Assembly (NCBI GenBank): GCA_028819235.1
Contig: JAPPMC010000172.1
Span: forward strand, 21,366-85,365
Direction: 5' to 3'
DNA: 64,000 bases
DNA from: Bryobacterales bacterium
GTDB taxonomy: Bacteria > Acidobacteriota > Terriglobia > Bryobacterales > UBA6623
A program made the translations under genes and the position numbers. The notes below the pieces were generated by a model that saw only the letters and a program-made list of their open reading frames with translations, had not been told where the DNA came from and did not search any database. Positions 37,237 to 54,562 of this stretch are shown piece after piece. How positions within the stretch are numbered: position 1 is the stretch's first letter; every line of letters starts with the position of its first letter.

Positions 37237-37436
37237 TGAACCTCCTTCAGGGACGCACACCGGTACACGCCATGCGACCGCCCGGATCCTACCACTTGCG
37301 GCAACCGCGACGGCGCACTTAAGGCGCGGTCATGACTCACCAGACGTCACTCGGGGCGCTGGGGCCCGGAGACGCCGATCCGGTCTCGTGGCGGTGACGA
37401 TTCGGCCCAGGGGTTCGCTCGCAGCGCGCGAGAAGA

Positions 37437-38936
37437 TCAGCCGCCGGGGACGGCCAGTAGCGCGACGTTGCCCGCGCGCTCGACAATCTGCGCGACGGTG
37501 GCGGTCATGGTCTCCACCAGTGGCGCGGGAAACACGCCCACTACGAGAACGATCACTGCCAGCGGCAGCAGAGTGGCGATCTCACGGCGCGTCATGTCCG
37601 GAAGCGAAGCCGCAATGGAGTTGCCAGGACGCCCCAAGACGACGCGCTGGAAGGTCCAGAGCATGTAGCCCGCCGCCAGCACGATCCCGCCCATGGAGAG
37701 AACGACCATCAGCAGGCTTCCATAAGAGGTTCCGACGAGCACCAGAAACTCGCCCACGAAATTCGCCGTGCCCGGCAATCCGAACGATGCGACGCAGAAT
37801 ATGCAGAAGAAGACTGCAAACCGCGGCATGGGCCTGTGGAGTCCCCCGTACGAGGCGATCTGCCGGTCGTGTGTCCGGTCGTATAGCAGGCCGGCGGCAA
37901 GGAAGAGCGCTCCGGTGGTGACCCCGTGGGTGAACATCTGCAGGATCGACCCCTGAATCCCCTCTTCATTGAAGGCAAAGATGCCCAACGTAACGAATCC
38001 CATGTGAGAGATGGACGAGTAGGCGATCAGCTTCTTCAGGTCAGACTGAGCGAGAGCCAGGCATCCTCCGTACAAGATGGCCACGATGGATGCCCACAGG
38101 ATGTACTTGGAGTATATGGCCGAGACCTCAGGCAGGATGGGCAGGCAGAAGCGGAGGAACCCGTAGCCACCCATCTTGAGCAGGATTCCCGCAAGGATCA
38201 CGCTGCCGGCCGTCGGGGCCTCGGAGTGCGCATCGGGCAGCCAAGAATGGAAGGGCACCATCGGGAGCTTGATTGCGAATCCCAAGACCAGTGCCAGAAA
38301 GATCCAGTGCTGGGCGCCTTCCTCGATCGTTGCTGCCGCCATGGCCTGAATGTCGAAGGTGCCTCCAGCCTGCATGTGGAGCCCGAGCAGGCCGACCAGG
38401 AGCAGGAGGCTGCCGGTCAGGCTGTACAGCACGAACTTCAGCCCGGCGGCAATCCGCTTCGGTCCGCCCCAGATCACGATCATGAAGTACATCGGCACCA
38501 TCGTGACTTCCCATAGCATGAAGAACAGGAAGGCGTCCATGGCCGCGAAGACCAGCAGCATGGAGCCCTCCGCGAGCAGGATCAAGCTCAGGTACGCCTT
38601 CACTTTCGTCGTGATCGAGCTCCAGGATGCCAGCACCGACAGCGGAGTAAGTATCGTCGTTAGCAGCACCAAGAGCATGCTCAGGCCGTCCAGCCCGACC
38701 GCGAACTCCACGTTGAAGGTCGGCATCCAAGCGGCCCTCCGAACGAACTGCATGCCGGATACAGCGGGATCGAATGCCTGCCACAGCGCCAGGGAAAGGG
38801 CCAAGCTCACAAGCGAACTCGCCATTGCCCAGTACCGGGCCCATTGGTCCCGCCGTGCCAGTACCACAGCGAGGATTCCCAAGAAGGGAACCGCGATCAG
38901 CGGGACCAGCAGGTTCTCGGAAACAAAAGACGGCAT
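37437..38936 (-). CDS. NuoM/NdhD-type proton-conducting antiporter-like membrane subunit (Proton_antipo_M family)
   Basis: 499 aa and polytopic. NuoM-type signature HSWLPDAHSEAPTAGSVILAGILLKMGGYGFLRF. It starts 18 nt after the NuoL-like gene. Confidence 0.9.
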   Translation of the reverse strand: MPSFVSENLLVPLIAVPFLGILAVVLARRDQWARYWAMASSLVSLALSLALWQAFDPAVSGMQFVRRAAWMPTFNVEFAVGLDGLSMLLVLLTTILTPLSVLASWSSITTKVKAYLSLILLAEGSMLLVFAAMDAFLFFMLWEVTMVPMYFMIVIWGGPKRIAAGLKFVLYSLTGSLLLLVGLLGLHMQAGGTFDIQAMAAATIEEGAQHWIFLALVLGFAIKLPMVPFHSWLPDAHSEAPTAGSVILAGILLKMGGYGFLRFCLPILPEVSAIYSKYILWASIVAILYGGCLALAQSDLKKLIAYSSISHMGFVTLGIFAFNEEGIQGSILQMFTHGVTTGALFLAAGLLYDRTHDRQIASYGGLHRPMPRFAVFFCIFCVASFGLPGTANFVGEFLVLVGTSYGSLLMVVLSMGGIVLAAGYMLWTFQRVVLGRPGNSIAASLPDMTRREIATLLPLAVIVLVVGVFPAPLVETMTATVAQIVERAGNVALLAVPGG

Positions 38937-38954
38937 GATCGGATCCCTTCTCTT

Positions 38955-41003
38955 CTACCCTGCAATCCACCAGTAAGCAAGCCCTATCACCAGAACCAGC
39001 CCGCACACGGCGATCAGCAGGTTCGAGCGAACCGTCCGAGGTTCCCTGCGCTGCAGCGCCCGCGCCGAGGCGACGGCAGCGAAGGCCGCCCGCTGGCCCG
39101 CGGAATCGACCCCCCGCAAGTCGATGATCCGAAACTGCCATGCCGATATGCCAATGGCGAGACTTGCCAGTCGCTGGATCGTGCCTTCGATAACGGCCTC
39201 CTCCAGCCGACGGCGCATCCCGCCCGAGAGGCGCAGCGTAAGGCGCACAGCGCCAGCCCGAAGGAGGACTTGCTCCAAGAAGATGGCCTCGACATAGTGG
39301 CGCAACCAGACCGCCATGCGGAGCAAGGGCCGCACCACGCAGGCGCGGTGAAGTTCGTCGATGTAGAGCTGGTTCAAGAACAGGACATACAGACGCATCA
39401 CCCACGGACGCTGCTGTAGCGGCTTGGCCACAGGGCGCCGATGTCGCACGTGCGCAAGCAACCATCCCGCCAACGCGGTGGCAAGTGCCACGCCCAATCC
39501 GGTCGAAATGCCCGCCGCGCGCGGAGGCGCAGATAGGCCCCCTTGTCCCACAACGGGGCCCAAGAACTCGGTGAAGCGGGACCACAGTGGCAGCATCAGC
39601 GCGGCGCCGCCTAGCGTCATCAATGCAACGACCGGCAGCTTGTTGGCCGCGAACAGCTTCGGAGCGGCGCCAGCCACACGAGGGGAAAACAGGCGCTGCA
39701 CGGCGCGATACGTGTAGCTGGCCGTGGTGAAGACCGCCAGGAGTGCGATGACCCAGAATGCGGCCCTCGCGCCTTCGGTGTGCTGCGCCGTCCACAGCCG
39801 CTCGTACGGACCCGTGAACAGCAGCAGCGGCGGAATGCAGGCCAAGACGAGAGCGCCGACGGCCAGCCTTCGCGAGCCGGATTCACCGTCCATCGCCGTC
39901 CCGTGCCCATGACTTGCCTGCCAGAGCGAGTTGCCGGTAGACAGGAACAGGAAGCCTTTCAGGAAGCCATGGGCCACAAGATGGAAGACCGCGGCCGTGA
40001 AAGCGCCCACCCCACAGGCGAAAACCATGAAGCCGATCTGGCTGATCGTCGAATAGGCCAACAGGCGCTTGATGTCGGACTGCGTAAGGGAAACCAAGGC
40101 TCCGTAGAGTGCTGTAGCCGCCCCGACTACGGCAATGGCCACCATCGCCGACGGGGCGAGCATCACAAGCGGACTCAGCCGGATGAGCAGGAATGGCCCG
40201 GCATTGACCATGGTTGCCGCATGAATCAGCGCTGAGACCGGCGTCGGAGCTTCCATGGCGTACGGCAGCCAGACGTGTAGCGGAAACTGCGCGGACTTCC
40301 CCATCGCCCCGCTCAGCAGACAAAGCGTGATGAGTGTGTTGCGACCGATTTCAACCCCGAGCAGACTGATGGTCTCTCCTGACATGCTCGCGGCCTGCGC
40401 CAGGATCTCGCGGATGTCGAGCGTCCCGTAGGTCGCGAAGGCAAGTACGACGCCGAAGCCCAACCCCACGTCGGCGACGGCGTTGACCAAGAACGACTTT
40501 GTGGCCGCCCGCGCGGCCGCCACGCGGCCGGCCCAGTGCGAGATCAGCAGATACGAGCAGATCCCCATCAGTTCCCAGCACATGTAGGTGACCAGCAGGT
40601 TGTTGCTGAGGACAAGCAGAGCCATGGCCCCCGTGAAGAGACCGATCAGGGCAAAGAACCGCCGGTACCGCGGATCTCCAATCATGTAGCGTGCCGAATA
40701 CACGTGGACGATGAAGCTGACCCCCGTCACCAGCACGAGCACGACTGCGGCCAGTTGGTCGAGCCACAAGCCAACCACGATGCGAAGGGAACCCACCTGC
40801 AGCAGTTCGTAGACCGGAATCTCCAAGGGGCCGTGGCCTGCAATCTGGAAGAGGCCCGCGACCGAGAGAACGAAGGAGCCCCCGACGGCGGGAATGCCGA
40901 CCAGGTGTGACCGGTCACCGATCGACCGGCCCGCCAGCGGCAGGAACAAGAATGCGGCCAGGGGCAATCCTGGGATGAGGGCGTAGGGCAACATGGCTAT
41001 CAA
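38955..41003 (-). CDS. NuoL/MrpA/DabB-type antiporter-like membrane subunit with long C-terminal extension
   Basis: 682 aa. NuoL/MrpA-type blocks (WELMGICSYLLISHW, KSAQFPLHVWLPYAMEAPTPVSALIHAATMVNAGPFLLIRL). The C-terminal ~150 aa are largely non-hydrophobic and Arg/Ala/Leu-rich (FLNQLYIDELHRA...), ending in one hydrophobic helix (NLLIAVCGLVLVIGLAYWWIAG). Confidence 0.9.
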   Translation of the reverse strand: MIAMLPYALIPGLPLAAFLFLPLAGRSIGDRSHLVGIPAVGGSFVLSVAGLFQIAGHGPLEIPVYELLQVGSLRIVVGLWLDQLAAVVLVLVTGVSFIVHVYSARYMIGDPRYRRFFALIGLFTGAMALLVLSNNLLVTYMCWELMGICSYLLISHWAGRVAAARAATKSFLVNAVADVGLGFGVVLAFATYGTLDIREILAQAASMSGETISLLGVEIGRNTLITLCLLSGAMGKSAQFPLHVWLPYAMEAPTPVSALIHAATMVNAGPFLLIRLSPLVMLAPSAMVAIAVVGAATALYGALVSLTQSDIKRLLAYSTISQIGFMVFACGVGAFTAAVFHLVAHGFLKGFLFLSTGNSLWQASHGHGTAMDGESGSRRLAVGALVLACIPPLLLFTGPYERLWTAQHTEGARAAFWVIALLAVFTTASYTYRAVQRLFSPRVAGAAPKLFAANKLPVVALMTLGGAALMLPLWSRFTEFLGPVVGQGGLSAPPRAAGISTGLGVALATALAGWLLAHVRHRRPVAKPLQQRPWVMRLYVLFLNQLYIDELHRACVVRPLLRMAVWLRHYVEAIFLEQVLLRAGAVRLTLRLSGGMRRRLEEAVIEGTIQRLASLAIGISAWQFRIIDLRGVDSAGQRAAFAAVASARALQRREPRTVRSNLLIAVCGLVLVIGLAYWWIAG

Positions 41004-41112
41004 CGCGCTTCCTGGGCAGATGGACTGCGCCCGACGCGACCATCCCGATCAGGCGCGAAGAGGGCCTGACCGGCAAGTGCCAAGAGCAAGAACGGCCCAC
41101 TGCCTGCCAAGG

Positions 41113-42579
41113 TCACGGCCCTCCAACCACCCGCAAGAACGCCGACATCAAGCCGTCGCCGAAGATCCCCAGGCCCAAGACCAAGCCCGCCGGGACGGCC
41201 ATGCTCAGCCGCACCGGCCACCCCAAGGCCCCGCGCAGCTCACCCGTGCGGGAGGCCTGCTGGGAGCGGAAGATCCTCTCAAGGACGGGGGCGAAATACC
41301 CCAGCGTCAGCAGAGAAGTCAACACCAGAGCCCCTGCTGCGAATGGATTGCCGGCCTCCATCGTCCCCAGCAGGATGTTCCACTTGCCGACGAACCCGCC
41401 TGTCGGCGGAATGCCCACCATCCCAACCGCCGCGATCACCAACGGGGCGATGACCCACGGATTCCGAATCTGGGCCCCGGCGATGTCGTCGATCGCTCGG
41501 ACCCCGTAGCGCCACGCGGCCACACCGGCGAAGATGAACAACCCGGCCTGCATCACCGCGTCGTTGACCAAGTAGTACAGTGCTCCGGCGGTGGCCTTGG
41601 TGCTGGATTGCCCAAGGCCGACCATGACAAGCCCCACGTGCGCAATGCCGCCATAGGCGAAGATCCGCTTGATCTCCGTCTGACGAATGGCTAGCAGGGC
41701 CCCGCCCACGGAAGCGACGATCCCCAAGCCTGAGACGACGGCATAGAGAATCTGCTCCGCGCCTGCATTTGCGGGGATGATCCCCCACAGCAGGATGCGG
41801 GCCCAAACCAAGATCGCCGTCTTCGTCACGAGCGCGGCGAGCAACGGAGCGGCCGAGTTCGGGGCGTGCGCATAGGCGTCGGGGAGCCAAGCGTGCACAG
41901 GCAGGAGGGCCATCTTGATGGCAAGACCGATGAGAATGAACGCAATGCCCCCGGCAGCCGCCTTCGACTCGAGCAAGCCCGGCAGGCGCTGAGCTAGGTC
42001 GGCGATATTCAGAGTGCCCGTCAGGGCGTAGAAATACGCCACTCCCAGCAGGTAGAACGCGGTTGCCAGCGCACCAATCATCAGGTACCGGAACGCCGAC
42101 AGCAATGCCCTGCCCCCGGGCACAGCGACCAACGCGTAGGAAGCCAGCGAGACCACTTCCAAGAACACGAAGATGTTGAACAGATCGCCGGCGTAGATTA
42201 CGCCGACAACTCCGGCGAGCAGCAGCAATACGGTCGTGTGGTACGGGACTGTTCGTCCCGCCAGCGAAGCCTCGCCCAGCGGCCCTGAGAATCCGAGGAC
42301 CAACAGCCCCACAAGGCTCGCAATAGCCGCCATCGTCGCCGACACCTCGTCGGCGACCCACTCGATGCCGAGCGGAGCCTGCCAGCCGCCGACCGCGTAG
42401 CGGACGGGTCCGAACGCCACCACGGAGCAGAGGCTGGCAATCGCCAGCAACGTCATCGCGACGGCCGCCGCCGCTGTAAGAGGCCGGCAGGCGGACCGCT
42501 TCCAGTGCCCGACCACGGGCATAGACACTGCGGCCGCCAAGGGGACCAAGAAGACCAAGGCCGGGAGAGACTCGGTCAC
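41113..42579 (-). CDS. mrpD: MrpD/MnhD (NuoN-like) antiporter-like membrane subunit
   Basis: 488 aa and polytopic. Block ALLPVHAWLPDAYAHAPNSAAPLLAALVTKTAILVWARIL. The GTG start overlaps the mrpC stop (GTGA at 42576-42579). Confidence 0.9.
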   Translation of the reverse strand: MTESLPALVFLVPLAAAVSMPVVGHWKRSACRPLTAAAAVAMTLLAIASLCSVVAFGPVRYAVGGWQAPLGIEWVADEVSATMAAIASLVGLLVLGFSGPLGEASLAGRTVPYHTTVLLLLAGVVGVIYAGDLFNIFVFLEVVSLASYALVAVPGGRALLSAFRYLMIGALATAFYLLGVAYFYALTGTLNIADLAQRLPGLLESKAAAGGIAFILIGLAIKMALLPVHAWLPDAYAHAPNSAAPLLAALVTKTAILVWARILLWGIIPANAGAEQILYAVVSGLGIVASVGGALLAIRQTEIKRIFAYGGIAHVGLVMVGLGQSSTKATAGALYYLVNDAVMQAGLFIFAGVAAWRYGVRAIDDIAGAQIRNPWVIAPLVIAAVGMVGIPPTGGFVGKWNILLGTMEAGNPFAAGALVLTSLLTLGYFAPVLERIFRSQQASRTGELRGALGWPVRLSMAVPAGLVLGLGIFGDGLMSAFLRVVGGP

Positions 42580-42953
42580 TGCAGCTTCTCCAAGATTGCT
42601 TCCTCATCGAAGCTGCCGAACCGCTTGTTGATCGCCGACACGATGCCCAACGAGACGCCCAGGGTGGCGACCTGCACGACGATCGCGGTCAGCGTTAGCA
42701 CGTGGGGCAATGGATTGACGAAGGCCTCGGCCTGGACCGGTCGGGACGGATCCAGCAGCACCGGGACGGTCGCCCCTTCCTTCGCGCTGATCGTCACGAA
42801 GTAGAAGATCACGCTGTTCTGGACCAGGTACAGACCGATGAGCTTCTTGATCAGATTGGGGTGGCTCACGCAGATGTAGAGGCCGGCCAGCAGGAGCAGG
42901 ATGAAGGTGACGAAATTGGGCCGCTGGATGGCCGCGTCCAGCAGCTCAGGCAT
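42576..42953 (-). CDS. mrpC: MrpC/MnhC (NuoK-like) subunit
   Basis: About 125 aa. MPELLDAAIQRPNFVTFILLLLAGLYICVSHPNLIKKLIGLYLVQNSVIFYFV... matches the MnhC/NuoK pattern (3 TM; L.K.iiGl.i....v.l). Start at the ATG at 42953, overlapping the mrpB stop by 8 nt. Confidence 0.85.
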   Translation of the reverse strand: MPELLDAAIQRPNFVTFILLLLAGLYICVSHPNLIKKLIGLYLVQNSVIFYFVTISAKEGATVPVLLDPSRPVQAEAFVNPLPHVLTLTAIVVQVATLGVSLGIVSAINKRFGSFDEEAILEKLQ

Positions 42954-43398
42954 GCTCGTCTCCTGTCTCACCAGCCCGCCACAGGCTGAACACGATCGAG
43001 ACCGAGGCAACGGCGATGTCAATTCCGACGCCAGCCTGGGTAAGCAGGATCGCCACATGGCGCCGTTCGGCCTCGTCCAGGCCTGGAATGACCAGTCCCG
43101 AATAATCCAGGTACGCTCCGCCCCCGATCAGGCACAGCCCGCCGATCCCCGCAAAGAGCAGCAGGCCGACACCGTCGCTGGCAAGGAGCCGCTCGGCCGC
43201 GTGCCGGGTCTCCCCCTGATCCCCGAAGACCAGCAGGTCCACCACCACGCTGGCGGCGAACATGACCCCAGCCACAAAGCCCCCTCCCGGGCCGTACTGA
43301 CCGAAGAACAGCACGTAGACGGCGAAGATCTGCACCATCGGCACCAGCAGCCGCACCGTGCGGCGGCAGATGAGACTGTCGTACGGCGGCTGGATCAT
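42946..43398 (-). CDS. mrpB: MnhB/MrpB domain subunit
   Basis: About 150 aa. RTVRLLVPMVQIFAVYVLFFGQYGPGGGFVAGVMFAASVVVDLLVFG is the MnhB-domain hallmark (G...PGGGF.gG). The ATG at 43398 overlaps the upstream stop (ATGA). Confidence 0.8.
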   Translation of the reverse strand: MIQPPYDSLICRRTVRLLVPMVQIFAVYVLFFGQYGPGGGFVAGVMFAASVVVDLLVFGDQGETRHAAERLLASDGVGLLLFAGIGGLCLIGGGAYLDYSGLVIPGLDEAERRHVAILLTQAGVGIDIAVASVSIVFSLWRAGETGDEHA

Positions 43399-43925
43399 TC
43401 CGAGTCCCTCCTCAGCAGGAGCCAACACGCGATCCCAGATGTGAAGACGACGACCGTCTCGATGAGCGTGTCGAGGGCGCGGTAGTCCATCAGCACTGCC
43501 GTCACGATGTTCGTCGTTTGGGTCTCGGCATACGCCCTCGTGAGGTACTCGGGCGACACGTGGACACTGGCAGGCGCCTGAGGATCGCCGAGTTGGGGCA
43601 GGTCGTTCGCCGCGTAGAGCAGCAGCCCCGCCAGCACGGGCAGCACGACTACGGCCGCCAGCGGAGGGGACGCCCTTCGGAACCGTATGCCGCCCCGACC
43701 AGCGTTGAAGAGGGTCAGCAGGAAGAAGACCGTCGCCAACCCGGCACCAACAACCGCCTCAACGAACGCAACGTCGACGGCCCCCAGCCAGGCCCAAACC
43801 AGCGCCAGAAAGAAGCTGTACGAACCCAGAAGCAGCACTGCGCTGAGGAGATCCTTGGCTACGATTGCGGCACCTGCGGTCAGCAGCAGCAGAAGCAGGA
43901 GCGGCAGCTCGAAGGAATACGTCAT
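43395..43925 (-). CDS. DUF4040/MbhD-MbhE-like subunit (equivalent to the MrpA C-terminal domain)
   Basis: 176 aa. The hydrophobic N-half (LLSAVLLLGSYSFFLALVWAWLGAVDVAFVEAVVGAGLATVFFLL) and C-half (TNIVTAVLMDYRALDTLIETVVVFTSGIA) match the MbhD/MbhE-type pattern (V.ail.dyRg.DTl.E). The ATG overlaps the mrpG stop (ATGA). Confidence 0.8.
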   Translation of the reverse strand: MTYSFELPLLLLLLLTAGAAIVAKDLLSAVLLLGSYSFFLALVWAWLGAVDVAFVEAVVGAGLATVFFLLTLFNAGRGGIRFRRASPPLAAVVVLPVLAGLLLYAANDLPQLGDPQAPASVHVSPEYLTRAYAETQTTNIVTAVLMDYRALDTLIETVVVFTSGIACWLLLRRDSE

Positions 43926-44221
43926 CGACGGTCCTCCGCCACCGGTCGATGGCCGGTCCGCAGCGCCGCCCTGACAGTCGCGTGGGCAATGACTGGATTC
44001 AGCAGGTACAGCAGGGCCAGCACGACCAGGATACGGAGGGTGCTCGTGCTCATGCCATGGTGGACCGCCAGTCCGAGCAGTAGGAAGAACGCCCCCAGCG
44101 AGTCGGTGAGCGATACCGCGTGCGCCCTCGTGTAGACATCCGGGAGCCGCACCATGCCAATGGCTGCGACGATCAGGAAGAACAGGCCAGTCCCAACCAG
44201 CAGCGTGACTACCAGTGACAT
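43922..44221 (-). CDS. mrpG: MrpG/MnhG subunit
   Basis: 99 aa. LFFLIVAAIGMVRLPDVYTRAHAVSLTDSLGAFFLLLGLAV is the MnhG/PhaG signature (G..Rl.D.y.R.Ha..k..tlG). Its ATG abuts the mrpF stop (TAGATG). Confidence 0.85.
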   Translation of the reverse strand: MSLVVTLLVGTGLFFLIVAAIGMVRLPDVYTRAHAVSLTDSLGAFFLLLGLAVHHGMSTSTLRILVVLALLYLLNPVIAHATVRAALRTGHRPVAEDRR

Positions 44222-44488
44222 CTAGCGAGCCCCCCTCTGTTCCAGGTACTTCGCGATCGCCAGTGCTCCGACCAAGTTCAGCAAGGCATAGCCAGTGGAG
44301 ATGTCCACGAAGACTTCCACCCTGTCATAGACCGTGCCGATGACCACCACGAGGATGATGGCCTTGGTGGAGATGCCATTCAGCCCGAGCATGCGATCGA
44401 ATATTGTCGGTCCGCGCACGACCCTATACAGATAGAGCACGATCAGCACAGCAAGGACGTTGAGCACAAGCAGCAGCGATAGGTTCAC
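44222..44488 (-). CDS. mrpF: MrpF/MnhF subunit
   Basis: 88 aa. LYRVVRGPTIFDRMLGLNGISTKAIILVVVIG is the MrpF/PhaF signature (R...GPt..DR..a.d....). The GTG start overlaps the mrpE stop (GTGA at 44485-44488). Confidence 0.85.
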   Translation of the reverse strand: MNLSLLLVLNVLAVLIVLYLYRVVRGPTIFDRMLGLNGISTKAIILVVVIGTVYDRVEVFVDISTGYALLNLVGALAIAKYLEQRGAR

Positions 44489-45024
44489 GATCGGCCCCCT
44501 TGTGCACGGAAGACCCCGGCAACGCGGTGCTCCAGCTTCTTGGCGGAGGCGACTGCGCCCTTCTCACCGTCGATGGCATGCACGATAAGGCCCTCGCGCG
44601 AGGCCTCAACCGTGACGGTTCCCGGCGTCAGGGTGATCGAGTTCCCCAGCAGCAGGATCGCCCTGTCGTCATCGAGACCTGTCTTGTGCCGGATCAGGAC
44701 CGGGCGGATCGGAAGTCTCGGATGGAGGATGAGGTACGCGACGCGCAGGCCACTGACGATGATCTGCCCGCACAGCCATGGGAAGTAGAGCAACGCGTGC
44801 GCCCAGCGCACGGGCCGGCCGGAAGCCGGCCGTGCCCCGAAGTTGATCACGGCCACGCCCAGCGCTGCCAGCAGACCCACCAACAAGTGGACCGGTTCGG
44901 CACTCTCCGACACCAACAGCCAGAGGGCGAACAGGACCGCAGCCCAGAACAAGGCTCGGCGCGTGAGTTGGTTCCTCACGGCGTCACGCGGCCTCCGAAA
45001 ACTCCAGCGGTTCCCAAGTCGCAT
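44485..45024 (-). CDS. mrpE: MrpE/MnhE subunit
   Basis: MnhE-like: LFWAAVLFALWLLVSES...HLLVGLLAALGVAV, then PGTVTVEASREGLIVHAID (typical PGT...d......l.vH.ld). The ATG at 45024 would overlap dabA by 41 nt. An in-frame GTG at 44979, 4 nt after the dabA stop, is an equally plausible start. Confidence 0.8.
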   Translation of the reverse strand: MRLGNRWSFRRPRDAVRNQLTRRALFWAAVLFALWLLVSESAEPVHLLVGLLAALGVAVINFGARPASGRPVRWAHALLYFPWLCGQIIVSGLRVAYLILHPRLPIRPVLIRHKTGLDDDRAILLLGNSITLTPGTVTVEASREGLIVHAIDGEKGAVASAKKLEHRVAGVFRAQGGRS

Positions 45025-47755
45025 CGGTGTGGTACCGCTGGAAGCGCGGCGCCGAAGGGTCTAGTGCCACTAGGTTCACCCACTGGTTGTGGAAGAGAGT
45101 TTGCAGGATCTCGTGCTTGCGGATGATCGCCGAGATCCTCTCGATCGGGGCTTCAATGATGGCCAGCAGGCGCATCGGCTCGTGATACCTGCGCTGGCCG
45201 TCGATTACGCCCTGCACAGGAAGGCCGCCGCGCAGATCGCTCTGGCTACCCAGCATGACACCAACGCCACCCACGACGTTGTGGATGACTTTGCTTCCGC
45301 TGCCGTACTTCCAAGGAGAGACCGCGGAGAAGTAGTACTCCGTGTTGATCCATTCTCCGACAATCAGCGGAGCGGTCATGATCTTCTCCAGATCCTCCCC
45401 CTTGGTGTCCGCAATCGGATCGTACGAGTGCAGGAAGACGCGCGACTCCAAGTTCAGGCCGAGCGTACGCGCTCGACGGCCGATCAGGAACGCGGCGTTG
45501 CTCGAAAGCCCCCATTCCGGGCGGGGGTTGGCCCAGTCGACGCTGCGGGATAGCGCGTGCAGGGCCGCTCCCCGCGGCCTTAGCGGCCCTGGGGCTCCGG
45601 GGATCCTACGCAGTCGCTCTGCCGCTTGGTGCCCCGTGACCACAGCCAGATCGCGGTCGAGGGCGCGCAAGTCTTCCCTGTGGCTGGCGGGAACATCTTG
45701 GCGGTCGTAGAATGTGACCCGGTCCGTCGTGGTGTCGTGCTTTCCCGCCACGAACCACACATCCTCGGGAATCGGCTGCCCGCGCTCGGCCAAGATGCGC
45801 CGCACCCTAGGGTCGTTGGCCATTCCAACGAAGGCCCGAGCGTTCGGGTCGCCGTGCGCCCCGCCGCATGCCCCGCAGTTGTACGCGGCAGCGTATGGGT
45901 TGTTCTCCGACTCCGCGCCGTGCCCGCAGGCGACGATGATCCGCCCCAACCCGCGCGTCAGCCCGATCATGCGCAGGCCACCGCCAACCATGGCCGCCTG
46001 CTCTTCGAGCGTGAACCCCACCGGTGGCTTGACCGGAGCATCCGACGGATCGGCGGACACGCGGGTCTGCACACCGCCGTCGAAGCGCCGGCGCATCCAT
46101 CCGAGCAGCCGCGCGTACGCGGACTGGGCCAGCGTCCGGCCGAGCAGGCCGATGCTGAAGAGAGCGCCGACGGCGTCGACCAGCACGAAGGCACCGAGGG
46201 GGCTCTGCTTGAGGTCGTGAAACAGCGTGTCGCGCAGCCTGCGCCAGCGGGTCCCGGATGCATAGCCTCGCAGGGCGCCCTCCTGACCACTCCGCACCGC
46301 CTCGTTCACGGTCTTGGGAGGCTTGAGAAGAACGGGGCACAGTGCCAGCCGGTCCTCGCTGTCGAAGGCCTGGTGGCTGATGGGCACTCCGAAGAATCCT
46401 GCGTAGCCGAATGTCTCGTAATTCCCCTGCTTCTCCAGGTGGCGGCGGAACGGCTCGGATCGGGCGTCAATGCAGAAAATCATCTGCGCAGCGGGCCTTT
46501 CCCGGCCGCTGACGTCGGGTGGCCGGTGAGCCGCAAAGCGCCGCAGGAAGCGGACGCGGAAGGAATCCTCATAGGCCTCGAGCCAGATCGGGCCCTGTCC
46601 CCCTTCTGGTAGGCGGTGGGCGTAGCCAAGGAGCGCCTCCGCACCCTTCGCCGACAGGGCGCGGATCTGGGCGGGTGCCAAGTTCAGGGCGGTAGCCAGC
46701 GCGTACAGCTCGCCGACCGAGCCCGTGCATACGGGGAACTCCTGGGGACCGGCGGCGTGAATGCAGGCGCGGACCGACGGCAGCAAGGGTTCAGACGCGT
46801 CCCCTCGCTCGGCGCAAGCGGCGCGCACGAATTCCGTCTCGTAGAAGAGGCGGACTGCGAGATACTCGACGACATCCGCCGGATGCTCCGCCTGAGCTGG
46901 ATACGTGGGGTTCTCGCTCCTCCACCGCAGAAAACCCGTCCATCCGGGGAGTTGCGCAAACGCGCGGGTCTGGTAGTCAAACCAGCGGTCCTCGGGAATG
47001 CCCAGCACACCGAGGGACCGGTGCACAGCGTCCGTGGCAGATTCCGGGAGGGCATCGATCTTGGCCACCGCACCCAAGATGCCGGCTAAGCGGTGTCCCG
47101 GATCCGTTCGCGCGAGAAGCCGCCAGCTGCTGTAGAACCCACATTCGCGGCCAGGCATTTGCCAGCCCGCCAATCCCTCGTCGAGGAACGCCGCAATCCA
47201 CTTGATCATCTGGCCGTCGACGGACTCCACAACCGAAGTTCCGACAGACCGGTCAAGCCAATCTCCAAGAGTGTGCGCGGGCGGCAGGTCGCCGCTGGGG
47301 ACACCCTCCGGTTCAGGGTCAATCTGGAGGCACACCGCCTCGACGGCCTCGAGCAGTTCGGTACGCCCCTCTCGGCTGGCGGACCATTGCAACAGCGAAC
47401 CGCTCAATGGCTTTACACCCACGGTCAGGGCTCCCCAGGCCACGTCGCGAGGCGAGAGGATTCGGTTGCCAGCCCTGACGGAAGGTCCGTCCAGGTCTGG
47501 CCCGAGGCGGTCCAGAGCGCTGCTCAGGCTCTCCGCGCGAATCCTCCCCTGGCGCCAGAACTCCCGGAACTCGCCGTTGGACAGGTACCCCCGACCGCCA
47601 ATGGTCGCGGAAGCCTCGCGGACGGCGTCGTCAAACGGCAGGAACTCGAATCCCCGCAGGGGGTTTCGGTACGCGAACGTGCGCAGCGGCCAAATCTGCG
47701 CAGCAGACCGGCAAGCATCGACAATCTGGCCGCGGAGGTCCGTATCTTGGCTCAT
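44984..47755 (-). CDS. dabA: DabA (DUF2309/UPF0753) putative inorganic-carbon pump subunit, beta-carbonic-anhydrase-like
   Basis: 923 aa. The N-terminal WPLRTFAYRNPLRGFEFLPFDDAV is the hallmark DUF2309 start. FCIDARSEPFRRHLE (Cys428-x-Asp430-x-Arg432) and GHGAESENNPYAAAYNCGACGG (His612, Cys627) reproduce the Cys-x-Asp...His-x14-Cys Zn-site pattern described for DabA. Confidence 0.9.
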   Translation of the reverse strand: MSQDTDLRGQIVDACRSAAQIWPLRTFAYRNPLRGFEFLPFDDAVREASATIGGRGYLSNGEFREFWRQGRIRAESLSSALDRLGPDLDGPSVRAGNRILSPRDVAWGALTVGVKPLSGSLLQWSASREGRTELLEAVEAVCLQIDPEPEGVPSGDLPPAHTLGDWLDRSVGTSVVESVDGQMIKWIAAFLDEGLAGWQMPGRECGFYSSWRLLARTDPGHRLAGILGAVAKIDALPESATDAVHRSLGVLGIPEDRWFDYQTRAFAQLPGWTGFLRWRSENPTYPAQAEHPADVVEYLAVRLFYETEFVRAACAERGDASEPLLPSVRACIHAAGPQEFPVCTGSVGELYALATALNLAPAQIRALSAKGAEALLGYAHRLPEGGQGPIWLEAYEDSFRVRFLRRFAAHRPPDVSGRERPAAQMIFCIDARSEPFRRHLEKQGNYETFGYAGFFGVPISHQAFDSEDRLALCPVLLKPPKTVNEAVRSGQEGALRGYASGTRWRRLRDTLFHDLKQSPLGAFVLVDAVGALFSIGLLGRTLAQSAYARLLGWMRRRFDGGVQTRVSADPSDAPVKPPVGFTLEEQAAMVGGGLRMIGLTRGLGRIIVACGHGAESENNPYAAAYNCGACGGAHGDPNARAFVGMANDPRVRRILAERGQPIPEDVWFVAGKHDTTTDRVTFYDRQDVPASHREDLRALDRDLAVVTGHQAAERLRRIPGAPGPLRPRGAALHALSRSVDWANPRPEWGLSSNAAFLIGRRARTLGLNLESRVFLHSYDPIADTKGEDLEKIMTAPLIVGEWINTEYYFSAVSPWKYGSGSKVIHNVVGGVGVMLGSQSDLRGGLPVQGVIDGQRRYHEPMRLLAIIEAPIERISAIIRKHEILQTLFHNQWVNLVALDPSAPRFQRYHTDATWEPLEFSEAA

Positions 47756-47798
47756 GCTTGCGGCCTTTGGTCGGGGCTCACGCGCATCAGCCGACTAG

Positions 47799-49382
47799 CT
47801 AGCGTACTTTGCGCACGCGTGCGGCCGCCGGGTCACCCGACAGCGGACGGTGCTCATCCAACCCCTGCACTACTAGCTTAGATCCATCCGCCTCGAACTC
47901 CTTGGCCGTGTCCGCGATGCGGTCCATCACCGTATGGTCGACCAACCTTGTGCCCGAAAGATCCAACGTCACTTCCGGACGGCCCTTCAGGCCGGCCAGC
48001 CGCTTCTTCAGGCCAATCCAGGTGCTGAACACGGCAGCACCCTGAACCGCCACGGTCGCCCCTGTAGGGGTCTCCTCCACCGCAGCGCGCAGCCGGAACA
48101 GCGAGCCGACCGGCGCGCCGTTTATGACGTGGATCAGTGCCTTCACCAAGATCCCGATGGCGATGCCCGACAGCAAGTCGGTGGCAAGCACGCCGAGGAT
48201 CGTTGAAACGAAGATCACCAGCTGCTCGCGGCCCACGTGGTACATGTGGGCGAACTCTTTGGGAGAAGCCAAGCGGAAGCCAGTAAACACCAGCATTGCC
48301 CCGAGCGCGGCGAGGGGAATCTGGTTGATCAGGCCCGGCGCGAGCGCAACGAAGACCAGCAGGAATAGCCCGTGGAACATGTTGGCGAAGCGAGTCTTGG
48401 CGCCGTTGTCAATGTTGGCCTTGCTTCGCACGATCTCGGAGATCATCGGCAGGCCGCCCACGAAGGCCGCGAGCGTGTTGCCGACGCCCACGGCCAGAAG
48501 GTCGCCGTCGTAGTTCGTCTTCCTGCGGTAGGGGTCGATCTCGTCGACGGCTTTGGCGCTCAGCAGGGACTCAAGGCTGCCGATCAGAGAGAAGAGCACG
48601 ATGTACTGAACCCCAGTGGCAGTCAGCACCCCAGAAAAGTCCGGGAAGGTTAGGGCGCCGAACATGTTGCTGGGAACATTGACCAGGAACTCGCCGCCGA
48701 GCCCGTAGCGCATGCCCATAGGGACGGCGAAGATCAGGACGATGACCGGAGCGGGGATGGCCCCCAGCAGCGGAACGCGCTTCAGGAGGGGGAAGCCGAA
48801 CAGCAGCACGAGGCTCACGATCCCGATCAGACCCACCTGAGGGTTCATCTCCATCACGAACGTTGGGATCTTTGCGAGCAATTCCAAGGGAGATCCCTCG
48901 TTGCCCAAACCCAGGGTGACCGGGACTTGCTTGGCGATGATGATCACGCCGATCGAGGCCAGCAAGCCGTGCACGGCCGCACTCGGGAAGAACTCCCCGA
49001 GGATTCCAGCGCGGAATACGCCAAAGAGGGTCTGGATCAGACCCGCGACCACGCCAACCCCCAGTGCGAGTCGGTACGCCTGGAAGTCGGCGGCCGGATC
49101 GCGGCCGGCTGTGAACCCGAAATCGGTCACGCACCCGATCGCTATTACGATCAGGCCAGCCGCGGGGCCCTTGATCGTCAGTTCCGAATTGCTGAAGAAT
49201 GTCGAGAGGACACCGCCGATGATGGCGGTGAAGATTCCTGCAATCGCGGGGTAGCCGCAAGCTAGGGAGATGCCCAGGCAGAGCGGCAGTGCAATAAGGA
49301 AGACGAGGAATCCCGAGAGTAGGTCGGACCCCCAGTATCGGCGAAGGCCGGCGGCGTTTCCGACTGGTTGCGCAGTTGTCAT
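47799..49382 (-). CDS. SulP family inorganic anion (sulfate/bicarbonate-type) transporter with C-terminal STAS domain
   Basis: 527 aa. SulP blocks (DLLSGFLVFLIALPLCLGISLACGYPAIAGIFTAIIGG; VGNTLAAFVGGLPMISEIVRSKANIDNGAKTRF). STAS-like tail (VAVQGAAVFSTWIGLKKRL...TLDLSGTRLVDHTVMDRI). Its stop lies 43 nt upstream of the dabA start. Confidence 0.9.
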   Translation of the reverse strand: MTTAQPVGNAAGLRRYWGSDLLSGFLVFLIALPLCLGISLACGYPAIAGIFTAIIGGVLSTFFSNSELTIKGPAAGLIVIAIGCVTDFGFTAGRDPAADFQAYRLALGVGVVAGLIQTLFGVFRAGILGEFFPSAAVHGLLASIGVIIIAKQVPVTLGLGNEGSPLELLAKIPTFVMEMNPQVGLIGIVSLVLLFGFPLLKRVPLLGAIPAPVIVLIFAVPMGMRYGLGGEFLVNVPSNMFGALTFPDFSGVLTATGVQYIVLFSLIGSLESLLSAKAVDEIDPYRRKTNYDGDLLAVGVGNTLAAFVGGLPMISEIVRSKANIDNGAKTRFANMFHGLFLLVFVALAPGLINQIPLAALGAMLVFTGFRLASPKEFAHMYHVGREQLVIFVSTILGVLATDLLSGIAIGILVKALIHVINGAPVGSLFRLRAAVEETPTGATVAVQGAAVFSTWIGLKKRLAGLKGRPEVTLDLSGTRLVDHTVMDRIADTAKEFEADGSKLVVQGLDEHRPLSGDPAAARVRKVR

Positions 49383-49682
49383 GACTTTGGGCCCATAGAT
49401 TAGCGCAGTTGGACAGGACCGTCCGGGTGTGACCGCCTCGGTCGCGTCACGACCATCGCCCGACTCCTAGCCGGACACCCGAGTCCCCCAGCGCGAACCG
49501 GGCCGAAAGTGACGGGGGCCGAACCGGATCTCCGGCTCCCTCATTCGGCCGACTGCCCGCAAAGTCCGCGGCGATTGGGCCGGACCGTCCGGCTACGTGC
49601 CGTGGATTCCCAATCGGCCGCCGTCGCGCCCCAAGGCGCGCCCCTGCGGCACCGGCGTTCCAGCGTTGCGCAGATATGGTCC

Positions 49683-51092: not shown

Positions 51093-51123
51093 GTTGTGCT
51101 AGTCCTCCGGACGAATCCAGATT

Positions 51124-54216: not shown

Positions 54217-54441
54217 TGGGTCTCCGGGGATCGTTTGCACTAGGCCGCACGAGGGGCCCTGCGCGGCGACCATGCTAGCGCCACAAGGCATCGGCTGCCA
54301 AGGCCGGAACGGCCCGACGTCCCGATGGAGCGCGGCGCGTACCCCGATCATGCGAACCGTACGGCCCCTGGGGACCCTCCCCACGGCCAGAGCTCGACAA
54401 TCTGTATAGATCAAAAAACGAATATAAAAGCAGGTGTCAAC

Positions 54442-54471
54442 GTGATATTCTGTAGTAGTGTGGAATATAAT
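54442..54471 (+). promoter_or_regulatory. Candidate sigma70-type promoter in the AT-rich divergent intergenic region
   Basis: A perfect TATAAT at 54466-54471, with GTGATA (4/6 match to TTGACA) 18 nt upstream at 54442-54447. It lies about 90 nt upstream of the ORF at 54563. Assigned by eye only. Confidence 0.3.
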
Positions 54472-54562
54472 AGAATCACACAACGTGATCCATGCTAAAA
54501 TCTCGAAGTGATAGCACCAGAGTCCTGTCTGTCGTGCCCACTTCCGAAGGAGGGTTTGTTCC

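What the first reader, a model, noticed from the sequence alone, without database searches (positions are those of the whole stretch)
42576..45024. Mrp module has the Mbh/Mbx-type gene order E-F-G-DUF4040-B-C-D with near-complete translational coupling
Junctions read directly from the sequence:
- E/F: GTGA overlap (44485-44488).
- F/G: abutting TAG-ATG (44219-44224).
- G/DUF4040: ATGA (43922-43925).
- DUF4040/B: ATGA (43395-43398).
- B/C: 8-nt overlap (42946-42953).
- C/D: GTGA (42576-42579).

Canonical Mrp operons are mrpABCDEFG with a large MrpA. Here the order and the split MrpA-C-terminal piece (DUF4040) mirror MbhA-H of archaeal membrane-bound hydrogenases. Yet the window contains no hydrogenase, NuoB/C/D/H/I-like or ferredoxin module. 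The only soluble-type partner in the operon is DabA.
Basis: partly seen in the sequence, partly recalled or inferred. Interest (0 to 1): 0.6.

Follow-up and report, generated by a model that had tools for sequence, protein, structure and literature searches.

The report
Mrp-type membrane module serving DabA
Six tightly overlapping genes form the small-subunit core of an Mrp-type ion-translocating membrane module whose only soluble partner is the CO2-hydrating protein DabA; the whole 11-gene block is conserved across seven phyla and is probably an undescribed, enlarged form of the bacterial DAB carbon-uptake pump.

Summary
All six junctions are exactly as described, and the gene identities hold.

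The order E-F-G-(MbhD/E fusion)-B-C-D is the group-3 Mrp layout, the same as MbhA-H and Pyrococcus mrpEFGBB'CD. It is not specific to Mbh/Mbx:
- I found the same order in 17 DabA-less, redox-less clusters in Acidobacteriota.
- Those clusters are the closest relatives of the MrpD subunit.
- A clade of MrpD with only MbhH/MbsH is rejected (AU p=0.0035).

The module does not end at MrpD. A NuoL-type and a NuoM-type subunit follow it, and SulP and DabA precede it. About 45-65 of the 80 related loci, from seven phyla, keep this 11-gene block. In the window's own order, all 44 genomes with this module have DabA beside it.

The genome has no hydrogenase and no second complex-I catalytic module.

The NuoL-type subunit has lost the TM12 Lys/Asp, as DabB has, but keeps a long lateral helix. 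DabA keeps its Zn ligands and its membrane-finger acid.

Best reading: one redox-free, ten-subunit, ion-driven CO2 hydratase.

Other windows of this scan found the same block in other genomes. I found no paper that links DabA to Mrp subunits.

The parts
47799..49382 (-). SulP-family anion transporter with a STAS tail; first gene of the conserved block
   Evidence: Pfam Sulfate_transp 182 bits. NCBIfam BicA scores only 113 bits against a cut-off of 880, so it is not a BicA orthologue. It is 63-97% identical and sits upstream of DabA in 46 of the related loci.
44984..47755 (-). DabA (PF10070), a beta-carbonic-anhydrase-like CO2 hydratase subunit; the only soluble protein of the block
   Evidence: Pfam DabA 828 bits. 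PDB 9rd0_A (DabA2) E=7e-109. C428/D430/H612/C627 align to the Zn ligands C351/D353/H524/C539, and D527 aligns to finger residue E444. All five are conserved in 63 of 63 cluster orthologues.
44485..45024 (-). MrpE/MbhA-type subunit. Start is either ATG 45024 (41-nt overlap with dabA) or GTG 44979 (4 nt after the dabA stop)
   Evidence: Pfam MNHE 113 bits; junction read.
44222..44488 (-). MrpF/MbhB-type subunit; GTGA overlap with mrpE
   Evidence: Pfam MrpF_PhaF 49 bits. Best PDB matches are MbsB and MbhB. The position of MrpF D35 is Asn here and in 59 of 63 orthologues.
43922..44221 (-). MrpG/MbhC-type subunit; its ATG abuts the TAG of mrpF
   Evidence: Pfam PhaG_MnhG_YufB 77 bits; TIGR01300 above cut-off.
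43395..43925 (-). Fused MbhD+MbhE protein (DUF4040), equivalent to the C-terminal TM17-21 domain of MrpA; ATGA overlap with mrpG
   Evidence: Pfam MbhD 61 bits and MbhE 40 bits. NCBIfam NF009159 159 bits, above its cut-off of 141. PDB matches: Dietzia MrpA residues 606-760 and MbhD/MbhE. The equivalents of E706, D792 and E796 are conserved in 61 of 61 orthologues.
42946..43398 (-). MrpB/MbhF-type subunit; ATGA overlap with the preceding gene
   Evidence: Pfam MnhB 71.5 bits; junction read.
42576..42953 (-). MrpC/MbhG/NuoK-type subunit; 8-nt overlap with mrpB
   Evidence: Pfam Oxidored_q2 59.5 bits. Best PDB match is MbsG. The cation-site His/Asp positions are Gln-Asn/Thr here.
41113..42579 (-). 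MrpD/MbhH-type antiporter-like subunit; GTGA overlap with mrpC
   Evidence: Pfam Proton_antipo_M 180 bits. PDB bit scores: MrpD of B. pseudofirmus 192, MbsH 171, MbhH 161. TM5 Glu, TM7 Lys, TM8 Lys and TM12 Lys are conserved in 63 of 63 orthologues.
38955..41003 (-). NuoL-type subunit with a long lateral helix; proposed DabB equivalent and docking site of DabA
   Evidence: TIGR01974 441 bits, above its cut-off of 407.5. PDB bit scores: NdhF1/NuoL 245-275, DabB2 134. TM12 SKDE is replaced by G-x-Y-E in the majority of the 60 cluster sequences tabulated, and DabB also lacks the Lys. A 138-residue non-TM stretch precedes a terminal TM helix. It is sister to DabB with support 90/91, which is not decisive.
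37437..38936 (-). NuoM-type antiporter-like subunit; last gene of the block
   Evidence: PDB Paracoccus NuoM 415 bits. It lies inside the complex-I NuoM clade. TM5 Glu, TM7 Lys, TM8 Lys and TM12 Glu are conserved in 55 of 55 orthologues.

Best explanation
The six overlapping genes encode MrpE, MrpF, MrpG, a fused MbhD/E protein (the MrpA C-terminal domain), MrpB and MrpC. Together they form the small-subunit core of a bacterial group-3 Mrp-type membrane module.

This core is inherited as one 11-gene block with MrpD, a NuoL-type subunit, a NuoM-type subunit, DabA and a SulP carrier.

I read the block as one redox-free, ten-subunit machine:
- DabA is a Zn-dependent, beta-carbonic-anhydrase-like enzyme. 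It docks through its membrane finger on the NuoL-type subunit.
- The NuoL-type subunit does the job of DabB. Like DabB, it has lost the TM12 Lys/Asp that the finger acid replaces.
- Unlike DabB, it keeps a full-length lateral helix. That helix clamps it to the NuoM-type and MrpD-type subunits, and through them to the small-subunit module.
- So DabA-L-M sits where MrpA's N-terminal domain sits in antiporters, and where the hydrogenase module sits in MBH.
- Ions (H+, perhaps Na+) flowing down their gradient through this arm drive one-way hydration of CO2 to bicarbonate in the cytoplasm.
- SulP adds or balances bicarbonate or other anion transport.
- This genome has no RuBisCO, so the bicarbonate would feed anaplerotic and biotin-dependent carboxylations.

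Shown: gene content, junctions, conservation, co-occurrence, key residues, phylogeny.
Inferred: physical assembly, docking site, direction of the reaction, coupling ion.
For: - Junctions and identities.
- Conservation: the same order SulP-DabA-E-F-G-DE-B-C-D-L-M appears in most of 80 related loci. In 45 of them every gene from DabA to NuoM has at least 70% coverage. By NCBI names they span Acidobacteriota, Nitrospirota, Nitrospinota, Planctomycetota, Pseudomonadota, Myxococcota and Binatota.
- Co-occurrence: in 201 genomes of the window's order, 44 have this MbhDE type (at least 69% identity). All 44 have DabA; I spot-checked adjacency (1-2 kb on the same contig) in two of them. None has the module without DabA.
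- Co-inheritance: DabA, D, L and M each form one clade for the Mrp-linked set, with similar internal groupings.
- DabB-like trait: the L subunit lacks the TM12 Lys/Asp, as DabB does. DabA keeps its Zn ligands and the finger acid, here D527. In DAB2 the finger Glu444 replaces NuoL K399/D400 (PMC13144422).
- Lateral helix: L has a 129-173-residue lateral stretch plus a terminal TM helix in all the cluster members I checked. This matches complex-I NuoL (110 residues) and the third subunit of the DabA-less relatives (70-113). DabB has only 13-28.
- Same subunit count: the DabA-less relatives also have three antiporter-like subunits, so L and M look like one-for-one replacements.
- Other Na+/H+ capacity: a separate canonical mrpA-G operon lies on the same contig, outside the window.
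- No redox module anywhere in the genome.
Against: - Nothing here is experimental. Assembly, stoichiometry and activity are all inferred.
- L as sister of DabB has only moderate support (UFBoot 90 / SH-aLRT 91). The alternative, L grouping with complex-I NuoL, is not rejected (AU p=0.25).
- A 109-nt gap separates mrpD from the L gene (median 84 nt across loci). In many Nitrospirales dabA and mrpE are 0.2-0.5 kb apart, and in three loci 1.9-7.4 kb apart.
- One locus (L085) has DabA-NuoM-NuoL directly adjacent, with no Mrp genes between or upstream on that 10-kb contig. DabA-L-M may therefore work on its own.
- Two proposed Na+-path positions of characterised Mrp/MBH differ here: MrpF D35 is Asn, and MrpC H37/H40 (or Asp in MBH) are Gln and Ile. 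Na+ coupling cannot be assumed.
Confidence: 0.55

Rival explanations
1. There are two co-regulated but physically separate machines. One is a DabA-L-M trimer that works like DabA-DabB-DabC. The other is a small group-3 Mrp (E, F, G, DE, B, C, D), like the stand-alone Pyrococcus Mrp. It would handle Na+/H+ or pH balance for the SulP carrier and for the protons that CO2 hydration releases.
For: - L085 has DabA-NuoM-NuoL with no Mrp genes between them.
- DabC of DAB1 aligns with the NuoM helices next to NuoL (10.64898/2026.05.01.722082).
- P. furiosus has a working stand-alone mrpEFGBB'CD with a single antiporter-like subunit (PMC8415708).
- A conserved non-coding gap lies between mrpD and the L gene.
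- Daebeler et al. proposed Mrp/BicA cooperation for the Nitrospira version of this locus (PMC7784846).
Against: - L keeps a lateral helix longer than that of complex-I NuoL. That is more than is needed to span M alone, and DabB lacks it.
- The closest DabA-less relatives have three antiporter-like subunits, the last one bearing a lateral helix. D+M+L reproduces that architecture.
- This Mrp type never appears without DabA in the 201 genomes of the order sampled.
- The genome already has a canonical Mrp.
Confidence: 0.27
2. It is an ordinary Na+/H+ Mrp antiporter, and dabA is merely an upstream neighbour with no functional link.
For: - The D subunit nests within bacterial Mrp-like clusters that lack DabA.
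- The Nitrospira literature annotates the locus simply as a group-3 Mrp with extra mnh-like nuoL/nuoM genes (PMC7784846; PMC12342949).
Against: - The linkage is kept across seven phyla.
- Co-occurrence is 44 of 44.
- The DabA-linked D, L, M and DabA sets are each monophyletic.
- dabA and mrpE overlap or abut.
- No canonical DabB is encoded elsewhere. The genome's only other PF00361 genes belong to complex I or to the canonical Mrp. DabA would therefore have no partner.
Confidence: 0.04
3. It is an Mbh/Mbx-like respiratory complex whose redox (hydrogenase- or ferredoxin-dependent) module is encoded elsewhere or is too divergent to recognise.
For: - The gene order is the same as MbhA-H.
- MrpF and MrpC score best against the MBS/MBH chains in the PDB.
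Against: - The genome has single copies of NuoD, NuoH and NuoB, all outside this contig. It has no NiFe hydrogenase and no Fer4 protein on this contig.
- The cluster has no MbhM/NuoH-like or MbhI-like membrane anchor.
- Exclusive kinship with MbhH/MbsH is rejected.
Confidence: 0.03
4. The chemistry runs the other way, or serves pH and ion homeostasis. The arm would use bicarbonate dehydration or CO2 hydration to move H+/Na+, for example consuming protons at alkaline pH, rather than to accumulate inorganic carbon.
For: - Many carriers are marine or haloalkaline organisms (PMC7784846).
- The COGNAT authors proposed an exergonic reaction that drives ion export (PMC5700660).
- Nitrospira and Nitrospina fix CO2 through the reductive TCA cycle (PMC7784846). 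Its key carboxylases use CO2 rather than bicarbonate (my own knowledge).
Against: - Characterised DABs take up CO2 and accumulate bicarbonate in an uncoupler-sensitive way (10.1101/476713; PMC13144422).
- The catalytic and finger residues are unchanged.
- The block also occurs in heterotrophs with no autotrophy genes, such as this genome.
Confidence: 0.08

Closest known systems
DAB2 (DabA2-DabB2, Halothiobacillus neapolitanus; PDB 9rd0; PMC13144422) and DAB1 (DabA-DabB-DabC, Thermocrinis albus; bioRxiv 10.64898/2026.05.01.722082)
   Same: - DabA family protein with the same Zn ligands and an acidic residue on the membrane finger.
- A NuoL-related PF00361 partner that lacks the TM12 Lys.
- No redox module.
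- DAB1 has a third subunit that sits where NuoM sits.
   Different: - Here the partner is a full NuoL-type protein. It keeps TM5 Glu and a long lateral helix, and it lies 4 kb downstream rather than adjacent.
- A complete NuoM, an MrpD and six small Mrp subunits are added.
- The finger acid is Asp, not Glu.
- DabA is 30-40% identical to the DabAs of the simpler DAB-type loci from other genomes.
Group-3 Mrp of Pyrococcus furiosus (stand-alone mrpEFGBB'CD) and the MbhA-H / MbsA-H modules of MBH (6CFW) and MBS (6U8Y)
   Same: - Identical gene order E-F-G-(D/E)-B-C-D.
- No full-length MrpA.
- The MbhD/E fusion is the same as in P. furiosus MrpB.
- Equivalents of E706, D792 and E796 of the MrpA C-terminal domain are present.
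   Different: - Bacterial, and the D subunit is not their exclusive sister (AU p=0.0035).
- No hydrogenase or other redox module.
- Two extra complex-I-type subunits, L and M.
- MrpF D35 is Asn, and the MrpC/MbhG cation-site His/Asp positions are Gln/Ile.
DabA-less bacterial E-F-G-DE-B-C-D-D'-D'' Mrp-like clusters
   Same: - Same gene order.
- Three antiporter-like subunits, the last with a lateral helix.
- Closest relatives of the MrpD subunit (30-45% identity).
- Same MrpF Asn/Gly and MrpC Gln substitutions.
   Different: - No DabA and no SulP.
- Their second and third subunits form clades of their own, unrelated to NuoM or to NuoL/DabB.
- In the two loci whose flanks I inspected, the neighbours are housekeeping genes.
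Cyanobacterial NDH-1MS (CupA/CupS on NdhF3/NdhD3; PDB 6TJV)
   Same: Works alike in principle: a CO2-hydrating protein sits on the NuoL/NuoM-type end of a complex-I-like membrane arm.
   Different: - CupA is unrelated to DabA.
- NDH-1MS is driven by electron transfer and has NuoH/A/J/B/C/D/I homologues, none of which is present here.
- The L and M subunits here score far better against respiratory NuoL/NuoM than against NdhF3/NdhD3 (146 and 240 bits).
The 'group 3 Mrp + extra nuoL/nuoM + BicA' locus of Nitrospira lineage IV and Ca. N. alkalitolerans (PMC7784846; PMC12342949), and COGNAT 'clade C' ybcC-SulP-NuoM neighbourhoods (PMC5700660)
   Same: Very probably the same locus type. Nitrospirales loci have the identical block.
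   Different: - The Nitrospira papers read it as a salt and alkali adaptation and do not mention DabA.
- COGNAT noted YbcC with SulP and NuoM but not the Mrp subunits, and could not assign a function.

Membership tests
DAB vectorial carbonic anhydrase (DabA + DabB) | DabA (PF10070) above the curated cut-off | tested here: met
   828 bits against a cut-off of 25; 9rd0_A E=7e-109.
DAB vectorial carbonic anhydrase (DabA + DabB) | Zn ligands Cys-x-Asp ... His-x14-Cys, and an acidic residue on the membrane finger | tested here: met
   C428, D430, H612 and C627 align to C351, D353, H524 and C539. D527 aligns to E444. All are conserved in 63 of 63 orthologues.
DAB vectorial carbonic anhydrase (DabA + DabB) | A dedicated DabB-clade PF00361 partner | tested here: inconclusive
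   The L subunit is sister to canonical DabB (98 SH-aLRT in the quick tree; 90/91 in the careful tree). The alternative is not rejected (AU p=0.25). It shares DabB's loss of the TM12 Lys, but keeps TM5 Glu and the lateral helix, which DabB lacks.
DAB vectorial carbonic anhydrase (DabA + DabB) | A two- or three-subunit complex encoded by adjacent genes | tested here: not met
   Ten candidate subunits are encoded, and seven genes lie between dabA and the L gene.
DAB vectorial carbonic anhydrase (DabA + DabB) | Energy-coupled CO2 uptake activity | not testable with these tools
   Needs expression in a carbonic-anhydrase-free host and 14C uptake assays.
Group-3 Mrp (no full-length mrpA; as in P. 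furiosus mrpEFGBB'CD and MbhA-H) | All Mrp domains present, with the MrpA C-terminal domain as a separate small protein and no fused MrpA | tested here: met
   Pfam MNHE, MrpF, MnhG, MbhD+MbhE, MnhB, Oxidored_q2 and Proton_antipo_M; definition taken from PMC8415708.
Group-3 Mrp (no full-length mrpA; as in P. furiosus mrpEFGBB'CD and MbhA-H) | Gene order E-F-G-B(D/E)-B'-C-D | tested here: met
Mbh/Mbx/Mbs respiratory complexes | Adjacent NuoB/C/D/I-like catalytic subunits and a NuoH-like membrane anchor | tested here: not met
   None in the cluster. Genome-wide there are single copies of NuoD, NuoH and NuoB on other contigs and no NiFe hydrogenase.
Mbh/Mbx/Mbs respiratory complexes | The antiporter-like subunit groups with MbhH/MbsH | tested here: not met
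   It nests among bacterial DabA-less clusters. The exclusive clade is rejected (AU p=0.0035). Mbx, Fpo and Ech references were not available.
Canonical Mrp Na+/H+ antiporter (groups 1 and 2) | A large MrpA (N-terminal antiporter domain fused to the C-terminal domain) and the order mrpA(B)CDEFG | tested here: not met
   Split and re-ordered here. A canonical operon exists separately at G000:C244:4034-9849.
Canonical Mrp Na+/H+ antiporter (groups 1 and 2) | Proposed Na+-path residues: MrpF D29 and D35; MrpC H37 and H40; MrpA E706, D792 and E796; MrpD TM5 Glu (PMC7419157) | tested here: inconclusive
   The equivalents of D29, E706, D792, E796 and the TM5 Glu are present. D35 is Asn. H37/H40 are Asn/Ile, with a conserved Gln beside them.
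Complex I / NDH-1MS | NuoL- and NuoM-type subunits | tested here: met
   TIGR01974 above cut-off; NuoM 415 bits; M lies inside the NuoM clade.
Complex I / NDH-1MS | A Q-module and NuoH/A/J, or CupA/ChpY | tested here: not met
   No such Pfam families among the 11 proteins.

The most novel reading that the evidence does not exclude
The Mrp platform has a third kind of head. In antiporters the head is MrpA's own N-terminal pump domain, and in MBH, MBS and complex I it is a redox module. Here a carbonic-anhydrase-like DabA, mounted on NuoL/NuoM-type subunits, would form a single ten-subunit, redox-free supercomplex. The ion-motive force, possibly through a modified, non-canonical cation path, would drive vectorial CO2 hydration. 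The block has spread by horizontal transfer through at least seven phyla, including the main marine nitrite oxidisers.
Probability: 0.5. Interest if true: 0.8.

Novelty: new variant of a known kind. Interest (0 to 1): 0.62.

Why it matters
DAB pumps are currently understood as two- or three-subunit machines. How proton flow is coupled to one-way CO2 hydration is still an open question.

A natural version would help in several ways. Here the DabB-like subunit still looks like NuoL and is wired to a full complex-I/Mrp-type arm.
- It would be an evolutionary intermediate between complex-I subunits and DabB.
- It would be a redox-free test bed for long-range coupling along antiporter-like arms.
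- It may be a major and overlooked inorganic-carbon uptake route in marine Nitrospira and Nitrospina, in Planctomycetota, in Woeseiaceae and in soil Bryobacterales.

It would also correct current annotations, which read these loci as salt-tolerance Mrp antiporters.

Tried and rejected
- **Promoter and terminator scan of 36800-50000:** no sigma-70-like sites. Three weak terminator-like sites were found, fewer than the shuffles give. This is uninformative for this phylum.
- **Rfam on the same stretch:** no match at E<=1.
- **The 109-nt mrpD-L gap:** it folds no better than shuffles (z=-0.73).
- **Phylum-wide sample of 400 genomes:** it held no orthologue of the DabA-linked module apart from the window's own genome. 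Instead it revealed the DabA-less relatives. The order-level sample was needed for the co-occurrence count.
- **L as sister of DabB:** the AU test could not settle this.
- **Literature:** four searches of the library for DabA/DUF2309 together with Mrp terms returned no paper that links them. The library does not hold most subscription-journal papers.
- **Na+ coupling:** I considered claiming it from the Mrp homology, but dropped the claim once two proposed Na+-path positions turned out to differ.
- **References:** I included no Mbx, Fpo, Ech, cyanobacterial Mrp or NdhF3/D3 sequences in the trees.

Full report
**Observation.** The minus strand of 37437-49382 carries eleven genes in a row:

| Gene | Coordinates | Note |
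|---|---|---|
| SulP | 47799-49382 | |
| DabA | 44984-47755 | |
| MrpE | 44485-45024 | |
| MrpF | 44222-44488 | |
| MrpG | 43922-44221 | |
| MbhD/MbhE fusion (DUF4040) | 43395-43925 | 176 aa |
| MrpB | 42946-43398 | |
| MrpC | 42576-42953 | |
| MrpD | 41113-42579 | |
| NuoL-type | 38955-41003 | 682 aa |
| NuoM-type | 37437-38936 | 499 aa |

All Pfam assignments are above the curated cut-offs. I read the sequence, and every junction in the finding is there:
- E/F: GTGA
- F/G: TAG followed directly by ATG
- G/DE: ATGA
- DE/B: ATGA
- B/C: 8-nt overlap
- C/D: GTGA

Each start is preceded by a purine-rich Shine-Dalgarno-like stretch. The chosen starts of B and C match where homology begins in orthologous loci. 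dabA is just as tightly joined: mrpE starts either 41 nt before the dabA stop (ATG 45024) or 4 nt after it (GTG 44979). No intergenic space is left for a promoter.

**What the module is.** The order E-F-G-(D/E)-B-C-D with no large MrpA defines 'group 3' Mrp. It is the order of MbhA-H and of the stand-alone P. furiosus mrpEFGBB'CD, whose MrpB is also an MbhD/MbhE fusion (PMC8415708).

The layout is not, however, a sign of Mbh/Mbx kinship.
- A 400-genome sample of the phylum held 17 clusters with the same E-F-G-DE-B-C-D order, followed by one or two more antiporter-like genes. None has DabA or a redox module. Subunit identities to the window's proteins are mostly 30-45%.
- The two whose flanks I inspected lie beside housekeeping genes: parAB and ATP synthase in one, dnaN and gyrBA in the other.
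- In a tree of MrpD-type subunits, the DabA-linked ones form one clade (SH-aLRT 100) nested inside these bacterial clusters.
- MbhH and MbsH fall outside, together with the canonical MrpD of Bacillus, Anoxybacillus and Dietzia and the genome's own MrpD.
- Forcing the DabA-linked D subunits into a clade with only MbhH/MbsH costs 42 log-likelihood units (AU p=0.0035).
- PDB bit scores agree: MrpD of B. pseudofirmus 192, MbsH 171, MbhH 161.

**The block is larger than the finding, and it is conserved.** I scanned one genome per species using a DabA alignment and then ran tblastn with all eleven proteins.
- The identical order SulP-DabA-E-F-G-DE-B-C-D-L-M appears in most of the 80 best loci.
- In 45 of them every gene from DabA to NuoM is covered to at least 70%. 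Most of the rest are cut by contig ends.
- By record name the loci come from Bryobacterales and other Acidobacteriota, Nitrospirales/Nitrospira, Nitrospina, Planctomycetota, Gammaproteobacteria (Woeseiaceae, Arenicellaceae), Myxococcota and Binatia.
- The small subunits are 50-88% identical across these phyla.

In 201 genomes of the window's own order:
- 71 have DabA.
- 44 have this MbhDE type at 69% identity or more.
- All 44 are among the 71. In the two I spot-checked, the two genes lie 1-2 kb apart.
- No genome has the module without DabA.
- Ten loci drawn from the other 27 DabA-positive genomes are all simpler DAB types (DabB-DabA, SulP-DabA-DabB-DabC) at 30-40% DabA identity.

The Mrp-linked DabA proteins form one clade (SH-aLRT 93). 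The L and M subunits each form a clade as well, and the internal groupings are similar. The block therefore travels as a unit.

**No hidden catalytic module.** The genome is 98.45% complete. It has one NuoD, one NuoH and one NuoB, none on this contig, plus one NuoI-type ferredoxin next to NuoD/NuoH. The only hit to the NiFe-hydrogenase family is NuoD itself, and no Fer4 protein lies on this contig. It has one DabA, one beta-carbonic anhydrase and no RuBisCO. A second, canonical mrpA-G operon sits about 56 kb away on the same contig, outside the window.

**How it probably works.** DabA aligns to DabA2 of the solved DAB2 complex (9rd0, E=7e-109).
- Its C428, D430, H612 and C627 fall on the Zn ligands C351, D353, H524 and C539.
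- D527 falls on Glu444 at the tip of the membrane finger.
- All five are conserved in 63 of 63 cluster orthologues.

In DAB2 that Glu takes the place of K399/D400 in TM12 of NuoL and completes a proton half-channel (PMC13144422). The NuoL-type subunit of this block fits that picture.
- It is a true NuoL by score: TIGR01974 is above its cut-off, NdhF1/NuoL give 245-275 bits, and DabB2 gives 134.
- Its TM12 motif is F-x-G-[PSTA]-Y-E, where the genome's own complex-I NuoL has FFSKDEILW and its MrpA has a Lys.
- The majority of the 60 cluster orthologues tabulated show this change, and canonical DabB also lacks the Lys.
- In trees it is sister to canonical DabB: SH-aLRT 98 in the quick tree and 90/91 in the careful tree. 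An AU test does not exclude the alternative (p=0.25).

Unlike DabB, the NuoL-type subunit keeps the following:
- TM5 Glu, TM7 Lys, TM8 His and TM11 Lys.
- A 138-residue non-membrane stretch followed by a terminal TM helix, which is the lateral-helix layout. This stretch is 129-173 residues in the other cluster members, 110 in complex-I NuoL, 70-113 in the third subunit of the DabA-less relatives, and only 13-28 in DabB.

The NuoM-type subunit lies inside the complex-I NuoM clade (415 bits to Paracoccus NuoM). Both M and D keep all four canonical charged residues in every orthologue.

I therefore read L as the DabB equivalent. It is clamped by its lateral helix to M and D, and through them to the small-subunit module. 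DabA-L-M then occupies the position that MrpA's N-terminal domain holds in antiporters and that the hydrogenase module holds in MBH. The docking site, the assembly and the direction of the reaction are inferences.

**The coupling ion is open.** Steiner and Sazanov proposed a Na+ path through MrpF D29 and D35, MrpA E706, D792 and E796, MrpC H37 and H40, and the TM5 Glu of MrpD (PMC7419157).
- The equivalents of D29, E706, D792, E796 and the Glu are conserved here.
- D35 is Asn in 59 of 63 orthologues.
- The MrpC positions are Gln plus Thr/Asn and Ile.
- All five solved MrpF-type chains (Mrp, MBH, MBS) have Asp at the D35 position, and the four solved MrpC-type chains have His, Asp or Glu at the cation site.
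- The DabA-less bacterial relatives share these changes. They are a trait of the whole bacterial E-F-G clade, not of the DabA link.

**Literature.**
- The Nitrospira version of this locus has been described as a group-3 Mrp with extra nuoL/nuoM-like genes and BicA, and read as a salt and alkali adaptation. DabA was not mentioned (PMC7784846; PMC12342949).
- COGNAT (2017) noted ybcC next to SulP and NuoM, but not the Mrp genes, and could not assign a function (PMC5700660).
- The DAB papers treat DABs as two- or three-subunit systems.
- Four searches found no paper that links DabA to Mrp subunits.

**Earlier notes of this scan.** I looked these up after forming my own reading. They show that the same block was found in at least eight other genomes, with the same general reading. 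This report adds:
- the DabA-less bacterial relatives;
- the rejected Mbh/Mbs kinship;
- the DabB-like TM12 change together with the retained lateral helix in L;
- the 44-of-44 co-occurrence;
- the deviant Na+-path residues.

**Verdict.** That makes it a new variant of a known kind, not yet tested by experiment.

Noticed in passing
outside the window: G000:C244:4034-9849 (about 56 kb upstream on the same contig): A second, canonical mrpA(B)CDEFG operon. Its MrpD groups with the Bacillus and Anoxybacillus MrpD. The genome therefore has an ordinary Mrp antiporter in addition to the DabA-linked module.
   Followed up: partly
window 44979-45024: The start of mrpE is ambiguous. ATG 45024 overlaps dabA by 41 nt and has no Shine-Dalgarno-like motif. 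GTG 44979 lies 4 nt after the dabA stop, with GGAGG 12 nt upstream. In most orthologous loci, MrpE homology begins after the dabA stop.
   Followed up: partly
window 41004-41112: A 109-nt non-coding gap between mrpD and the NuoL-type gene. A gap is present in all 57 loci measured (median 84 nt, range 13-326). It has no Rfam match and folds no better than shuffles (z=-0.73).
   Followed up: yes
L086-L102 (Acidobacteriota genomes G180, G285, G022, G055, G054, G142, G164, G082, G093, G206, G296, G186, G157, G367, G073, G258, G118): DabA-less clusters with the order E-F-G-DE-B-C-D followed by one or two more antiporter-like subunits. In those examined the last one bears a lateral helix. The two whose flanks I inspected lie next to housekeeping genes. 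They appear to be an uncharacterised bacterial group-3 Mrp family. In them MrpF D35 is Asn or Gly, and the MrpC cation-site His is replaced, with a conserved Gln alongside.
   Followed up: partly
L085:4390-10245 (Deltaproteobacteria MAG JAQBCN010000202.1): DabA is followed directly by NuoM-type and NuoL-type genes, with no Mrp genes between them or upstream on the 10-kb contig. This could be a minimal DabA-M-L form or an intermediate. Its DabA branches near the base of the Mrp-linked clade.
   Followed up: partly
L033:13589-19571 (Nitrospirales chromosome OZ245013.1); also L044 and L051: In L033 an inverted second DabA plus a DabB-like gene is inserted between the Mrp-linked dabA and mrpE, a 7.4-kb separation. 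L044 and L051 have inserts of 4 kb and 1.9 kb at the same place. The dabA-mrpE junction is therefore not always tight.
   Followed up: no
L106-L115 (same order as the window's genome): At least three other DAB layouts occur in the same order: DabB-DabA (DabA about 775 aa), SulP-DabA-DabB-DabC-like, and DabB-DabC-DabA. One genome (G422) carries two of them. SulP is also linked to DabA where no Mrp genes are present.
   Followed up: partly
window 33982-37260 and 49683-55011: The block is flanked on the same strand by three genes: a 1092-aa CarboxypepD_reg/OMP beta-barrel protein downstream, and a type I sulfatase and a 1295-aa DUF7133-HEAT-cytochrome c protein upstream. None of them is conserved next to the block in other phyla.
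   Followed up: no
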